Source: a virus. Taken from it: 64,000 nt of DNA. The translations under genes and the position numbers were made by a program. Below are positions 28,168 through 43,293 of the stretch, piece after piece. The stretch covers positions 127,697-191,696 of IMG/VR virus record IMGVR_UViG_3300030108_004965, one strand, 5' to 3'. How positions within the stretch are numbered: position 1 is the first letter of the stretch; each line of letters starts with the position of its first letter. The notes beneath the pieces were generated by a model. It saw only the letters and a list, made by a program, of their open reading frames with translations. It did no database searches and had not been told where the DNA came from.

Positions 28168-28207
28168 ACATTATTCCTCCGCTATTTGTAAGTAGTTTCT
28201 AAACGTA

Positions 28208-28236
28208 GAAACCTCCGACATTCTAAATGCCGGAGG
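28208..28236 (-). terminator. Hairpin / terminator-like element upstream of the neck gene
   Basis: Minus strand CCTCCGGCATT-TAG-AATGTCGGAGG-TTT. Confidence 0.55.
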
Positions 28237-28290
28237 CTTACAGTTCAATAAATCATTGGAGGAGTTAATCATTATATAACTAGTTCCAAT

Positions 28291-28314: not shown

Positions 28315-28336
28315 CTTGTATTAATAAAATGAAATA

Positions 28337-28453
28337 TTATTTCTTTTTACTGGTTGGTTTTTTAGTAGAAGCTTTTTTAGCGGGTGCTTTTTTGACCTCA
28401 GACTTTTCAGCAGGAGCTTCTTTCTTTTCAACTGTTTTTGTCGTAAAACGCAT
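28337..28453 (-). CDS. 38 aa Lys/Ala-rich histone H1-like peptide (missed by ORF track)
   Basis: MRFTTKTVEKKEAPAEKSEVKKAPAKKASTKKPTSKKK*; AAGGA SD upstream, terminator downstream. Confidence 0.7.
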   Translation of the reverse strand: MRFTTKTVEKKEAPAEKSEVKKAPAKKASTKKPTSKKK

Positions 28454-28521: not shown

Positions 28522-29094
28522 TTAACCAGCAGAAATATCGGCTGATTTCATACCAATAAAGCGAACAACTAATTGTCCAGCATTAATAGTTGTACTGGCG
28601 CCATCTGTATTGCACAAAAAGATATACTTTCCATCTGGTGATGTAGCAGGCGCCACTACTGCGGCTCCAACTCTTTTAGCATTACAAGCAAAATCATGAT
28701 TTAAATCAACAGGGTTGGTTGGTGCAACATTAATAGCAGCCTCAACATCACCTTGTTTAAGACTACATTGAGTGATAGTAGTTAACGCTTCCATAATGTA
28801 TGTTTCTGTCGATTGCAGAACACCATGTACATCATCTTCCCACTTGAGCAAATGCGCTGATGCTGTGGACGAATGAGTTCCAATTGGACGATCAACAGTT
28901 GCAGATCTGATATCTGTTGTACTAACCCCGAGATCCAAAACGATCTCAGTGATAATAAAAACCCCATCTTTAATAATTCTGTGGCTTATAATGGCTGGTG
29001 AAATGCTCGCACCTGCTTGGTACGAAGTATCAGTACCGGTAGATCCTCTTCTGAGGAGAGCATTTAATCTTTGAGCCCCTATTCTTCTTCCCAT
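28522..29094 (-). CDS. Hypothetical 190 aa protein, probably virion structural (capsid-associated)
   Basis: Arg-rich N-terminus, beta-rich body; directly downstream of MCP with its own late motif and structured leader. Confidence 0.6.
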   Translation of the reverse strand: MGRRIGAQRLNALLRRGSTGTDTSYQAGASISPAIISHRIIKDGVFIITEIVLDLGVSTTDIRSATVDRPIGTHSSTASAHLLKWEDDVHGVLQSTETYIMEALTTITQCSLKQGDVEAAINVAPTNPVDLNHDFACNAKRVGAAVVAPATSPDGKYIFLCNTDGASTTINAGQLVVRFIGMKSADISAG

Positions 29095-29128
29095 AATATT
29101 TTCTCCTTATAAATTATATTATTGCAAT

Positions 29129-29220
29129 AACTTGATTTTAATCAATGATTTATACCAGCGGCCTCGGTATAGATCTTTCTAGGAGCAGCCGCCCCGCCCC
29201 AAGGAGAATAAATCCAAGTT
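29129..29220 (-). ncRNA. Candidate structured RNA (multi-way junction with complementary loops)
   Basis: Ends pair (AACUUGGAUU / AAUCAAGUU); stem CUUGGGGC/GCUCCUAG with loop GGGGCGGCU; stem UAUACCG/UGGUAUA with loop AGGCCGC; the loops can pair (GCGGCU:GGCCGC). It begins 4 nt after the late motif. Confidence 0.55.
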
Positions 29221-29224
29221 ATAA

Positions 29225-29232
29225 TAAATAGT
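29225..29232 (-). promoter_or_regulatory. Late-promoter-like motif ACTATTTA (representative; about 13 copies, see findings)
   Basis: Recurs in short intergenic gaps upstream of structural genes. Confidence 0.6.
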
Positions 29233-29239
29233 TCAAAAC

Positions 29240-29270
29240 AAAAGAAAACCCCCACTCCGAAAAGTGGGGG
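29240..29270 (-). terminator. Rho-independent terminator after MCP
   Basis: Minus strand CCCCCACT-TTTCGG-AGTGGGGG followed by TTTTCTTTT. Confidence 0.85.
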
Positions 29271-29298
29271 CTATCATTTAATTTACCTCAAGGGTGAA

Positions 29299-31125
29299 TT
29301 AGGAAGAACCTTCCTCACCAGCAAGTCCACGAACGATAACAAGACCGTACATATCCGGACGAACCATCTTCTTCGCATAGCGAGTCATTACGCCTTTACG
29401 AGGAACAAAGTCTTCTGGTCCGAAGATTGTAGGTGTAGTCTGTAGCGGTACGTATGGAGCATAGACATATCCACTTTCGAGGAATGAAGAGCCTTTACGA
29501 CCTACTAGGACCACGTTACGTGGGAAGTATGGGTCAACCAAGACGTCAAACTTACGGCTCAAAGAACCTACGTTAACGGCCCCGATGTCGCCTTTGTCAG
29601 CGTCAGCAGTAACATTAGCACGGAAGCCTGCGGTGAATTCAAGAATGTTAGCAACTTCTGGAGAAACAACTACGAAGTTTGCTCCACCACGAAGAGTCTT
29701 TCTGTGGATTTGAGCAGAAACGTCGTTGATAGTTTCAACGAGAGTCTCGTACCATTCAGAAACAGTTCCGGTGAAATCAGGAGCAGCAGAAGCAGCGCCG
29801 AGTTCAAGACCAGTTTCACGGTTCACAAATAGACCCGGAGAACGAGACCAGTAATAAGTAGCAGCATGAGCACCGTTTACAAGATCAGCAAGAATCTCAC
29901 GATCGATCTCAAGAGCAATTTGCTCAGAAAGGATAGAAGTCAACTCTACCTCAGCATCCAAATTGTGGTAAGCGTTCAAGTCTTGACCCAATTCTGGAGT
30001 CCACTTGGCTTTCAATTTCTTGGTTTGTGCTGTGATAGCGCTTGAGTCAACTTTGATATCAATCTCTGGAATTTTTTCGATTCCTTCCATTGCGTATTCG
30101 TATCCCTGAAGACCACCTGCAGGTGCAGTACCAGCAGTAACATCATCTTTAACTGGGAAAATCAAAGAGTCAATTGCCAAACCAGCAGCGCTAAATGCCC
30201 CAGATTGACCTGCTGTGATGTTTGAACCTACAACAACATAACGAATGGCTGCGATTTCATTTGTCAACGATGATCCAGTATCTTTAGCTTGAGTCAAGCG
30301 ACGGATCTGGCCTGTCAAAGTATTAAAGGCACCATCAGCGTCCTGAAGACCACCTGTACCGGTTAGGTTTTTGATGTCAAAAGCCGCGAGATTATCAAGA
30401 TCAGGAGACCCTAACGAAGCACTGTGGCTGGCCTGTGCGATATCAAGAACTCCAACCATAAGAGTTGAATCAGTCACAGACAAGAGGTCTGGGTCGAATT
30501 TGATAAGTTTTTTGTTTGCTGCGGATACGTTGCCATCCAAGGTAAACGTAGAAACCAAGGTTGCCTCAGCTTCTGTTTGACCAATTATTGTTGAATTACT
30601 TCCGCTTGGAGAAGCATAAGCATAACCAACCATTCCACGAGGACCAGATAGGTCGGCTTTAGTAGTAGTGTCAATAAGATCTACACCTTCTTCAATTCCA
30701 GAACCCTTTTTATTAGTACCATAGATAGAAGCATCAGCGTCGTTTCCAAAGCGAGGATCAAGACCACCACCAGAACTTTTTGCATCAGGTGAATACACAA
30801 AGTCAAGGAAGAAGATCAGCCCACTAGGGAGTGACATTGGTTGAACACTAACAAGATCGTTAGCGATAAGTCCGGCGAATACACGACGAACAATTGGAAA
30901 TGCAACGGCAGCGAAACCTTCAACATCTCCAGCAGTCATTGAAGAACTCTCACGAAGAAGTTCTTTTGCTTGGTTTTCCAACAATCGAGCCATGTTGTGC
31001 TTATGATTGTCGCTTTGAAGGCCTTCGAGCAAACCAGTAGCCGACCACTTGTCAAGAAGAGCTTGTCCTTCTTGGGCCATATTACGGCTTACAATACCTT
31101 CGGTTAATTTTTGTACAATAGACAT
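29299..31125 (-). CDS. Major capsid protein (T4 gp23-like)
   Basis: AFPIVRRVF..LIANDLVSVQPMSLPSGLIFFLDF, KLKAKWTPELGQDLNAYH.LDAE.EL..ILSE.IALEIDREIL, YAPYVPLQ, KGVMTRYAKKMVRP. Confidence 0.97.
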   Translation of the reverse strand: MSIVQKLTEGIVSRNMAQEGQALLDKWSATGLLEGLQSDNHKHNMARLLENQAKELLRESSSMTAGDVEGFAAVAFPIVRRVFAGLIANDLVSVQPMSLPSGLIFFLDFVYSPDAKSSGGGLDPRFGNDADASIYGTNKKGSGIEEGVDLIDTTTKADLSGPRGMVGYAYASPSGSNSTIIGQTEAEATLVSTFTLDGNVSAANKKLIKFDPDLLSVTDSTLMVGVLDIAQASHSASLGSPDLDNLAAFDIKNLTGTGGLQDADGAFNTLTGQIRRLTQAKDTGSSLTNEIAAIRYVVVGSNITAGQSGAFSAAGLAIDSLIFPVKDDVTAGTAPAGGLQGYEYAMEGIEKIPEIDIKVDSSAITAQTKKLKAKWTPELGQDLNAYHNLDAEVELTSILSEQIALEIDREILADLVNGAHAATYYWSRSPGLFVNRETGLELGAASAAPDFTGTVSEWYETLVETINDVSAQIHRKTLRGGANFVVVSPEVANILEFTAGFRANVTADADKGDIGAVNVGSLSRKFDVLVDPYFPRNVVLVGRKGSSFLESGYVYAPYVPLQTTPTIFGPEDFVPRKGVMTRYAKKMVRPDMYGLVIVRGLAGEEGSS

Positions 31126-35413: not shown

Positions 35414-35577
35414 ATTTTTATTCCTCCAAAAATTATGTTTTTTATTACGTAAAAACGTAGAGGATCTCGGGTATACCGGCATCCTCGATAGATAAATAGT
35501 TTAAGGAAATCAAAAAAAACCGACCAAAATACTTATTTTTTGCCAAGATACTATTGGGTGCTTTAAAATCAATACTT

Positions 35578-41633: not shown

Positions 41634-41849
41634 TTAATTTTGTCTCCGGAGACGCTTGCGAAGTTCTTTTTTGTGCTTTGCGATCGCTCTCTTTTTTGCT
41701 AGTCTTTTCTTGACAGAAGGTTTTGTATAATATCTATTATCCTTTACCTCATCAATAATGCCTAATTTTTTACATTTTTTGATGAATCTTTTGATAAATC
41801 TATTTGGGTCTTCGTTCTTTCGAGGTTTTTCTATGTGATTAGTAGCCAT
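41634..41849 (-). CDS. rpsU: Ribosomal protein bS21 homolog
   Basis: 71 aa, basic; E.....IKRF.KKC...GII.EVK..RYY.KPSVKKR..K..A matches the bS21 signature. Confidence 0.9.
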   Translation of the reverse strand: MATNHIEKPRKNEDPNRFIKRFIKKCKKLGIIDEVKDNRYYTKPSVKKRLAKKRAIAKHKKELRKRLRRQN

Positions 41850-42977: not shown

Positions 42978-43293
42978 AATCACCTCCTGATCTTGATGAT
43001 ACTCTTATACCAAAGTCATCAACGACCATGGAGAGCAAATAAGTAGTTCCGGCTCCCAAACAAGAGAGACAGAAAGCATTCCCTAGGGAATATTCAAATG
43101 TAAATAGTTCTGTGTAGCCGTTTATGCAAAACAAAAATAGAGAACACCAGAAGCCCATACACAAAGGACAGTGAAAAAGAGTGTTCCATTTTTTAGAATA
43201 ATCCTTCTCCGGTCTTATGTCCTCAAAGATCTTACCGTGAACAATTATGAAAGTCATGCCATAGGCTACTAAAATGAAATTAAGTATGTTCAA
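42964..43293 (-). CDS. Small multi-TM membrane protein with CxxC
   Basis: Three hydrophobic segments; LFHCPLCMGFW. Confidence 0.7.
   Translation of the reverse strand: MNILNFILVAYGMTFIIVHGKIFEDIRPEKDYSKKWNTLFHCPLCMGFWCSLFLFCINGYTELFTFEYSLGNAFCLSCLGAGTTYLLSMVVDDFGIRVSSRSGGDYVDD

What the first reader, a model, noticed from the sequence alone, without database searches (positions are those of the whole stretch)
29119..29232. About 92 nt multi-stem RNA with mutually complementary loops immediately after the major capsid gene
Seen in sequence (minus strand): after the MCP terminator comes the late motif ACTATTTA, and 4 nt later a GC-rich element starts whose ends pair (AACUUGGAUU/AAUCAAGUU). It encloses hairpin A (CUUGGGGC/GCUCCUAG, loop GGGGCGGCU), hairpin B (7 bp, loop AGGCCGC) and a small hairpin AAUC/GAUU. 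Loop A GCGGCU can pair with loop B GGCCGC over 6 bp. A perfect palindrome TTATTGCAATAA (29119-29130) overlaps its 3' end, ahead of the SD of the 190 aa gene. Established: loop-loop kissing junctions occur in purine-family riboswitches (intramolecular) and in phi29 pRNA (intermolecular ring). I cannot match the conserved core nucleotides of any known class. Inference: an undescribed late cis-regulatory leader or a virion-assembly RNA.
Basis: partly seen in the sequence, partly recalled or inferred. Interest (0 to 1): 0.72.

Follow-up and report, generated by a model that had tools for sequence, protein, structure and literature searches.

The report
Kissing-loop leader RNA after capsid gene
A conserved, folded RNA of about 105 nt precedes the probable capsid-cement gene that follows the major capsid gene in a clade of uncultured marine T4-like phages. 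It matches no catalogued RNA family and looks built to open or hide that gene's ribosome-binding site.

Summary
On the minus strand, 29221-29128, lies a three-way-junction RNA: P1 of 7 bp, P2 and P3 of 7-8 bp, and a 6-bp loop-loop helix.

I found more than 150 distinct homologues in marine viral and metagenome contigs. They always sit in the same order: gp23-like capsid gene, terminator, promoter-like ACTAWTTA, RNA, SD, then a gene starting MG[NS]RR.

On 83 distinct sequences, 95% of cells pair and 18 of 28 pairs show compensatory changes. The loop-loop helix pairs in 99.8% of cells, with four sequence variants. Rfam 15 gives no match.

The RNA travels with the downstream gene, not with the capsid gene. 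That gene is a jelly-roll protein whose best structural matches are phage capsid cement proteins.

Two further features suggest a translational switch. An invariant CUCCU is complementary to the SD. A conserved palindrome shares its left arm with the 3' strand of P1. Neither the switching nor any effector is shown.

There is one copy per genome. It is absent from cultured phages and from many relatives.

The scan found this RNA family before on another genome (e1-5679132), with the same reading. This is a new RNA family of a known general kind.

The parts
29237..29272 (-). Intrinsic terminator of the gp23-like major capsid gene (stem 29272-29247, then a T-run)
   Evidence: A terminator precedes the element in the relatives too (alignment A1).
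29225..29232 (-). Promoter-like late motif ACTATTTA (family consensus ACTAWTTA), 3-5 nt upstream of P1
   Evidence: 12 copies in the window against 3.5 expected, 11 of them on the gene strand. Several follow terminators and precede SD-ATG. It is conserved upstream of the RNA in the homologues. A transcript start has not been shown.
29215..29221 (-). P1, 5' strand (UAACUUG)
   Evidence: Pairs with 29134-29128. 95.2% of cells pair, with many A-U to G-U and U-A to U-G changes and some double changes. The G-U pairs work only on this RNA strand.
29201..29208 (-). J1/2 pyrimidine tract UUCUCCUU, complementary to the SD. Its last C and U also form the base of P2.
   Evidence: The core CUCC is in all 11 sequences collected without a pattern. 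A scan that did not constrain this region returned no family member without CUCCU. Duplex with the SD region is about -10 to -11 kcal/mol. Pairing with the SD is inferred, not shown.
29179..29203 (-). P2 hairpin: 7-8 bp with a conserved U.U mismatch and a 9-nt loop A
   Evidence: 5 of 7 pairs show compensatory changes, 90% of cells pair.
29187..29192 (-). Loop A half of the 6-bp loop-loop (kissing) helix
   Evidence: Pairs with 29163-29158. 99.8% of cells pair over 83 distinct sequences. The two central pairs occur as CG/GC and as AU/GC/CG. A fourth variant is in L003. 96 further metagenome copies all have matching loops.
29172..29178 (-). J2/3, purine-rich junction (GAAAG-type here, GAAG-type in another subclass)
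   Evidence: The two junction subclasses change together with the sequence of J3/1.
29151..29171 (-). P3 hairpin: 7-8 bp, 7-nt loop B (29164-29158) carrying the other kissing half
   Evidence: 6 of 8 pairs show compensatory changes, 95.6% of cells pair. A pair fixed by my first search pattern was seen to change C-G to U-A in copies found with a second pattern.
29140..29150 (-). Small hairpin in J3/1 (3-4 bp, triloop). Tentative.
   Evidence: Some compensatory variants and several mismatched ones. Weak support.
29128..29134 (-). P1, 3' strand (CAAGUUA)
   Evidence: Its last 3-6 nt are also the left arm of the palindrome.
29119..29130 (-). Perfect palindrome (12 nt here, 14 nt in most relatives): candidate alternative hairpin P4 or a self-duplex
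   Evidence: 81 of 83 distinct sequences carry a perfect 10-16 nt palindrome overlapping P1 by 3-6 nt. Three derived centre variants are also palindromic. 97% of cells pair, and the outermost pair is G-C or G-U.
29101..29108 (-). Shine-Dalgarno region AAGGAGAA of the downstream gene
   Evidence: The SD is unpaired in 61 of 83 folds when P1 is enforced.
28522..29094 (-). Downstream gene, 190 aa: a basic N-terminal arm plus a jelly-roll domain. Probable capsid cement or decoration protein.
   Evidence: AlphaFold2 model, pLDDT 84. Best structural matches are phage capsid entries: Ralstonia phage GP4 capsid Z 8.6, cyanophage Pam1 capsid Z 8.1, and the KHP40 trimeric cement protein Z 7.2. No Pfam or PHROG match.
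29299..31125 (-). Upstream gene: gp23-like major capsid protein, 608 aa
   Evidence: Pfam PF07068, E 9e-75. PHROG 138.

Best explanation
This is a structured 5' leader RNA of a late phage mRNA. Its most likely job is to control translation of the gene after the major capsid gene, a probable capsid cement or decoration protein.

Shown:
- A conserved three-way junction (P1, P2, P3). The loops of P2 and P3 pair over 6 bp.
- Strict placement between a promoter-like motif and the SD of one gene family.
- One copy per genome.

Inferred:
- Transcription starts a few nt after ACTAWTTA, so P1 holds the 5' end of the RNA.
- The RNA can adopt two states of about equal predicted energy. In state A, P1 closes the junction and the SD is free. 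In state B, the palindrome folds on itself and takes the GUUA that P1 needs, P1 opens, and the invariant CUCCU tract pairs with the SD and blocks initiation.

Some effector would shift the balance between the states. It could be a small molecule, a phage or host protein, or the ribosome. I cannot tell which. My rough split is a protein about as likely as a metabolite.
For: The RNA is real and under selection.
- The intergenic element is 72-84% identical at the nucleotide level in relatives whose capsid proteins are only 58-70% identical. Their downstream proteins are barely detectable by tblastn.
- RNAalifold predicts P1, P2 and P3 independently.
- 95.1% of cells pair, 18 of 28 pairs are compensatory, and the kissing helix is 99.8% paired. 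A MAFFT alignment gives the same picture.

The link to the downstream gene.
- The upstream ORF is the capsid protein in 87 of 89 loci.
- The downstream ORF belongs to the 190-aa family in 63-67 of 91 loci. The rest share its N-terminal arm.
- Of 80 loci collected by capsid protein alone, only 10 carry the RNA. Seven of those 10 are among the 8 loci with a match to the 190-aa family downstream.
- There is one copy in this genome and one in each of four other large genomes.

The promoter-like motif is covered.

Features that suggest a switch.
- The palindrome overlaps the 3' strand of P1 in 81 of 83 sequences.
- In one clade the shared nucleotide changed U to G. Both its P1 partner and its palindrome partner changed A to C.
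- Enforced P1 and enforced CUCC:GGAG folds average -32.1 and -32.3 kcal/mol.
- CUCCU is invariant even when it is not part of the search pattern.
Against: - There is no transcript, probing or reporter data.
- The CUCCU:SD pairing has no covariation of its own. Cognate and non-cognate pairs are equally stable, -10.4 against -10.2 kcal/mol, and this window's tract pairs as well or better with 13 other SD regions of the same window.
- The palindrome is mostly conserved rather than covarying.
- No ligand pocket can be named. A structural-protein gene is an unusual target for a metabolite sensor.
- About 26 of 60 relatives without the RNA have the same gene family behind a short leader. So the control is dispensable.
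Confidence: 0.55

Rival explanations
1. A static 5' structure. The fold only protects the late mRNA's 5' end from 5'-end-dependent decay, or sets a fixed translation rate. Nothing switches and there is no effector.
For: P1 would sequester the predicted 5' end. A relative without the junction RNA, L017, has a plain hairpin right after the same promoter-like motif in front of the same gene family. The CUCCU:SD pairing shows no covariation.
Against: A stabiliser needs only a terminal hairpin. Here the junction sequences, a 6-bp loop-loop helix, a palindrome that competes with P1, and an invariant SD complement are all conserved across more than 150 distinct copies. The two closing helices are predicted to be of about equal energy.
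Confidence: 0.2
2. A trans-acting, self-associating RNA. The two loops pair between molecules, as in phi29 pRNA, and the palindrome forms a 12-16 bp self-duplex. The resulting dimers or rings would act in capsid assembly or maturation rather than in gene control.
For: Covariation cannot separate intra- from intermolecular loop pairing. All four centre variants of the palindrome are fully self-complementary, which a hairpin with a 4-nt loop would not require. The neighbouring genes are head genes.
Against: No terminator or processing signal separates the RNA from the SD and gene. P2 and P3 are of equal length, as in side-by-side intramolecular folds. It is absent from close relatives with the same capsid family, including a complete 190-kb genome. 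To my knowledge, T4-type packaging is not known to use an RNA.
Confidence: 0.08
3. A DNA-level element. The conservation would reflect a recombination handle for swapping the downstream gene, or a binding site for a dimeric protein at the palindrome, not an RNA fold.
For: The loop types are scattered over the capsid-protein tree: at least 17 changes in 120 rows, and at least 9, 6 and 3 for the three loop types counted singly where well-supported branches force them. So the leader and the downstream gene move independently of the capsid gene. C-terminal domains behind the conserved leader and N-terminal arm are of several unrelated kinds.
Against: Compensatory changes in three helices and the loop-loop helix have no DNA-level explanation. 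Neither do the many G-U pairs, which are C-A on the other strand. The outermost palindrome pair is G-U in 36 of 83 sequences, which breaks DNA symmetry. The spacing between the conserved palindrome arms varies from 2 to 6 nt. A recombination-handle role could coexist with the RNA function.
Confidence: 0.04
4. A small protein-coding gene hidden in the spacer (37-aa and 28-aa ORFs overlap it).
For: Short ORFs exist on both strands, and many homologues have long stop-free stretches.
Against: 264 of 287 indel runs among homologues are 1 nt long. Lengths range from 100 to 108 nt. There is no 3-nt periodicity in variability (0.67, 0.63, 0.70 by phase). The substitutions are pair-preserving.
Confidence: 0.01

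Closest known systems
Purine riboswitch aptamer (Rfam RF00167), especially the translational adenine (add) type
   Same: A three-way junction with P2 and P3 of about equal length, held together by loop-loop contacts. P1 closes the junction. It is a 5' leader, and the 3' strand of P1 has a competing partner near an SD. (The add mechanism is from established knowledge.)
   Different: No covariance-model match even at E up to 10. The junction sequences differ. The loops form six Watson-Crick or wobble pairs rather than two plus base quadruples. J3/1 is 13-17 nt and carries a small hairpin. The regulated gene is a virion protein, not a purine gene.
Lysine riboswitch L2-L3 kissing helix
   Same: An intramolecular 6-bp loop-loop helix between two arms of one junction shows that such a long kissing helix can form within a single aptamer (established knowledge).
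   Different: The lysine riboswitch has a five-way junction with a K-turn in P2 and is about twice as long. There is no Rfam match here.
phi29 prohead RNA (pRNA)
   Same: A phage RNA of about 100-120 nt with a three-way junction and two loops whose complementarity covaries among relatives (established knowledge).
   Different: pRNA is a free RNA of phi29-like podoviruses that pairs between molecules on the portal. This RNA is an mRNA leader in T4-like myoviruses, with a 6-bp rather than 4-bp loop helix, and has no Rfam match.
Phage T4 translational operators (the gene 32 leader pseudoknot, RegA and gp43 sites)
   Same: Structured or specific sites in T4-type mRNA leaders through which a phage protein sets translation. 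This is a precedent for protein-operated control (established knowledge; the gene 32 case is summarised in PMC10690425).
   Different: There is no sequence or structural resemblance. No binding protein is identified here.
Candidate structured RNAs catalogued from viral metagenomes (Fremin et al. 2023, PMC10690425)
   Same: That survey mined the same kind of data (IMG/VR) and reports cis-regulatory candidates next to structural genes.
   Different: Its alignments are not held here. I could not check whether this RNA is among its 10,006 candidates. The text describes candidates upstream of a capsid gene, not this one.

Membership tests
Purine riboswitch (RF00167) | Covariance-model score at or above the family's gathering threshold | tested here: not met
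   No match at gathering thresholds on the whole window, nor at E up to 10 on 28900-29500.
Purine riboswitch (RF00167) | Three-way junction with P1, P2, P3 and L2-L3 contact | tested here: met
   The loop contact here is a 6-bp helix, unlike the purine class.
Purine riboswitch (RF00167) | Conserved ligand-pocket nucleotides in J1/2, J2/3 and J3/1, including the specificity pyrimidine next to P1 | tested here: not met
   Junction sequences tabulated. J1/2 ends in a CUCCU tract, J2/3 is a GAAAG or GAAG type, and J3/1 is 13-17 nt. None of these corresponds to the purine core as I recall it, and the model does not match.
Purine riboswitch (RF00167) | Association with purine metabolism or transport genes | tested here: not met
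   It always precedes a virion-protein-like gene.
phi29 pRNA (Rfam pRNA family) | Covariance-model match | tested here: not met
phi29 pRNA (Rfam pRNA family) | Intermolecular loop-loop pairing that forms a ring on the portal | not testable with these tools
   Covariation fits both cis and trans pairing.
phi29 pRNA (Rfam pRNA family) | A free-standing RNA gene of phi29-like podoviruses | tested here: not met
   The RNA runs into an SD and gene with no terminator. The phage is gp23/T4-like.
Hammerhead ribozyme with loop-loop contacts | Catalytic core in the junctions, and a covariance-model match | tested here: not met
   No Rfam hammerhead match. J1/2 and J3/1 lack the core sequence.
Riboswitch in general (ligand-sensing cis-regulatory RNA) | Conserved structured aptamer in a 5' leader | tested here: met
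Riboswitch in general (ligand-sensing cis-regulatory RNA) | An expression platform with mutually exclusive pairings | tested here: inconclusive
   P1 and the palindrome share 3-6 nt. The two closing helices are of about equal predicted energy. The SD pairing does not covary.
Riboswitch in general (ligand-sensing cis-regulatory RNA) | Direct binding of a small molecule that changes expression | not testable with these tools
   This needs in-line probing or reporter assays.
Phage capsid cement/decoration proteins (for the downstream gene) | Jelly-roll fold similar to solved cement proteins | tested here: inconclusive
   Top VIA-align matches are the GP4 capsid (Z 8.6), the Pam1 capsid (Z 8.1) and the KHP40 cement protein (Z 7.2). 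The tool notes that Z of 7-8 is typical of best hits in general. Foldseek against PDB gives nothing below E 1e-3.

The most novel reading that the evidence does not exclude
The RNA is not only a leader. It would self-assemble through loop-loop pairing between molecules and through the self-complementary palindrome, forming dimers or rings. These would act with the basic N-terminal arm of the cement-like protein during head maturation. That would make it an RNA co-factor of capsid assembly in a T4-like phage, which has no precedent outside phi29 pRNA.
Probability: 0.07. Interest if true: 0.9.

Novelty: new variant of a known kind. Interest (0 to 1): 0.62.

Why it matters
If the switch model holds, this would be a sensor RNA that gates production of a virion surface protein in abundant ocean phages. 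That target class is not among those known for riboswitch-like leaders. It would also give a handle on how these phages time or dose capsid cementing.

Independent of function, it is a compact, well-supported natural RNA. It has an unusually long intramolecular-type kissing helix and hundreds of natural variants, which makes it useful for RNA structure work.

The conserved leader plus N-terminal arm in front of unrelated C-terminal domains also marks a swap site for capsid-surface modules.

Tried and rejected
- Rfam 15 at gathering thresholds on the whole window, and at E up to 10 on 600 nt: only noise. The best hits overlap the terminator.
- A repeated element in the genome: rejected. There is a single copy by BLAST and by covariance model.
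- Cultured or GenBank phages: no match by near or distant DNA search or with the downstream protein.
- Bacterial genomes: the pattern scan returned 120 rows, all chance matches in mostly GC-rich genomes.
- Coding potential: rejected.
- Covariation between CUCCU and the SD, by comparing cognate with non-cognate duplex energies: no signal.
- Transcript-like contig ends in metagenomes: no clustering.
- Supplementary alignments of the viral structured-RNA survey are not held.
- Two literature searches found no description of this RNA.
- Three weak nhmmer hits (L245, L250, L281) are coding sequence, not family members.
- Pfam and PHROGs give nothing for the 190-aa protein.

Full report
**What is there.**
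Read on the minus strand, the gp23-like major capsid gene (29299-31125; Pfam Gp23, E 9e-75) ends in a strong intrinsic terminator (29272-29247 plus a T-run).

ACTATTTA follows at 29232-29225. Four nt later a GC-rich element begins, and it ends about 20 nt before the SD of a 190-aa gene (28522-29094).

Taken alone, the fold is only moderately better than shuffles: -31.4 kcal/mol, z -2.5. The case therefore rests on comparison with relatives.

**Homologues.**
The window comes from a 191.7-kb uncultured virus record.

I collected 80 relatives by capsid protein alone, at 58-70% amino-acid identity. In ten of them the spacer is 72-84% identical at the nucleotide level (nhmmer E 2e-26 to 8e-9). The protein downstream is barely detectable by tblastn. 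A non-coding stretch conserved better than its flanking genes is a sign of function.

Three pattern scans of viral contigs and one of metagenome contigs added more than 150 distinct copies. A covariance model built from 96 sequences scores the window at 102.5 bits.

**Structure.**
RNAalifold on the 11 pattern-free sequences predicts P1, P2 and P3.

- On the model-based alignment of 83 distinct sequences, 95.1% of cells form standard pairs. Column shuffles give 83.6%, and sliding the partners gives 25-45%.
- 18 of 28 pairs show changes on both sides. A MAFFT alignment gives the same result.
- The loop-loop helix is paired in 99.8% of cells. Its two central pairs occur as C-G or G-C and as A-U, G-C or C-G.
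- These central positions were free in my search patterns. A scan that did not constrain the loops at all found seven new members, and all had matching loops.
- A divergent member, L003, carries a fourth variant.
- P1 changes mostly through G-U intermediates. These are only tolerable on this RNA strand.

The element is not coding. 264 of 287 indel runs are single nucleotides, and there is no 3-nt periodicity.

**Context.**
- The upstream ORF is the capsid protein in 87 of 89 loci.
- The downstream ORF (185-373 aa) belongs to the 190-aa family in 63-67 of 91 loci.
- The remaining downstream proteins have unrelated C-terminal parts but the same basic N-terminal arm, starting MG[NS]RR.
- Among the capsid-collected loci, the RNA occurs in 10 of 80. 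Seven of those 10 are among the 8 loci with a match to the 190-aa family downstream of the capsid gene.
- Four other large genomes have exactly one copy each. A complete 190-kb relative has none.
- About 26 of 60 relatives without the RNA still have a gene with a related arm (MG[TS]KR) behind a short leader. In L017 that leader is a plain hairpin.

So the RNA is an accessory of this gene in one sub-clade.

**The downstream protein.**
The protein models confidently (pLDDT 84) as a jelly roll with a flexible N-terminal helix.

- Its best matches among about 48,000 solved chains are phage capsid entries: Ralstonia phage GP4 (Z 8.6), cyanophage Pam1 (Z 8.1) and the Helicobacter phage KHP40 trimeric cement protein (Z 7.2).
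- These Z values are middling.
- Foldseek against PDB gives only weak jelly-roll hits.

'Capsid cement or decoration protein' is therefore a reasoned guess, helped by the gene's position.

**Promoter-like motif.**
ACTATTTA occurs 12 times in the window against 3.5 expected, 11 of them on the gene strand. Several copies lie just after terminators and 15-45 nt before SD-ATG.

The motif, or ACTAATTA, is conserved 3-5 nt upstream of P1 in the homologues. If it acts like the T4 late -10 element, the transcript begins at or next to P1. That is an inference from established knowledge of T4 late promoters.

**Switch-like features.**
- In 81 of 83 distinct sequences a perfect palindrome of 10-16 nt starts inside the 3' strand of P1. 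The overlap is 3-6 nt.
- The right arm of the palindrome repeats the 5' strand of P1. The two helices therefore compete for the same GUUA.
- Three derived variants of the palindrome centre are also fully self-complementary.
- In one clade the shared nucleotide changed, and both of its alternative partners changed with it.
- J1/2 carries an invariant CUCCU tract complementary to the SD. It is present in all pattern-free sequences. A scan that left J1/2 free found no member without it.
- Folds with P1 enforced and folds with CUCC:GGAG enforced average -32.1 and -32.3 kcal/mol. The SD is unpaired in 61 of 83 P1-state folds. P2, P3 and their loop contact persist in both states.

**Limits on the switch model.**
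- The tract pairs equally well with non-cognate SD regions.
- The palindrome is mostly conserved rather than covarying.
- Nothing here shows that switching occurs, or what would drive it.

**Comparison with known families.**
- No Rfam 15 family matches.
- The overall shape resembles the purine riboswitch 'tuning fork' and its translational add variant. Model score, junction nucleotides and gene association all fail that membership test.
- The 6-bp loop helix recalls the lysine riboswitch and phi29 pRNA. Neither matches, and the phage type and leader position argue against pRNA.
- A survey of viral structured RNAs (PMC10690425) may contain this RNA, but its alignments are not available here.
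- Two literature searches found no description.
- An earlier follow-up in this scan reached the same reading for the same family on another genome (e1-5679132).

**Evolution.**
On a tree of the capsid protein C-terminal 330 residues, the three common loop types need at least 17 changes in 120 rows. Well-supported branches force at least 9, 6 and 3 changes for the three types counted singly.

This window's closest capsid relatives carry a different loop type. The likely reading is that the leader and the downstream gene recombine independently of the capsid gene. Even so, no copy with mismatched loops was seen.

**Verdict.**
The RNA is real and conserved, and it belongs to no catalogued family. 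It is most likely a cis-acting translational control leader for a capsid-surface protein (about 0.55). A static stabilising leader (about 0.2) and a self-associating assembly RNA (under 0.1) are the main rivals.

Noticed in passing
window 41634-41849 (-): Phage-encoded ribosomal protein bS21 in the head-gene region (Pfam PF01165, E 3.5e-10, 39.9 bits against a cut-off of 27). It may bear on SD-dependent initiation in this phage, given the SD-complementary tracts in late leaders.
   Followed up: partly
window 28335-28451 (-): An unlisted 39-aa lysine-rich ORF with its own SD. It lies between the stop of the 190-aa gene and the next terminator, 28317-28297.
   Followed up: no
window 28170-28290 (-): A second long late leader ahead of the 420-aa gp13-like adaptor gene. 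It has a promoter-like AACTAGTTA, a CUCCUCC tract complementary to the SD, a strong hairpin, a second ACTACTTA, and then the SD. It may be another SD-masking leader.
   Followed up: no
window about 35430-35500 and 43030-43108 (-): Two more late leaders of unusual length follow ACTATTTA and contain inverted repeats. Most other late genes have leaders of 15-45 nt.
   Followed up: no
L017:3130-3260 and 25 other capsid-collected loci: Relatives without the junction RNA still have a gene after the capsid gene that starts MG[TS]KR[VI]G, a related N-terminal arm, behind a short leader. RNA-bearing loci start MG[NS]RR. The arm sits in front of at least four unrelated C-terminal domain types, which suggests a swappable capsid-surface module.
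   Followed up: partly
L005 and L040: Two tandem paralogues of the 190-aa family follow a single copy of the RNA. The second copy has no leader of its own.
   Followed up: no
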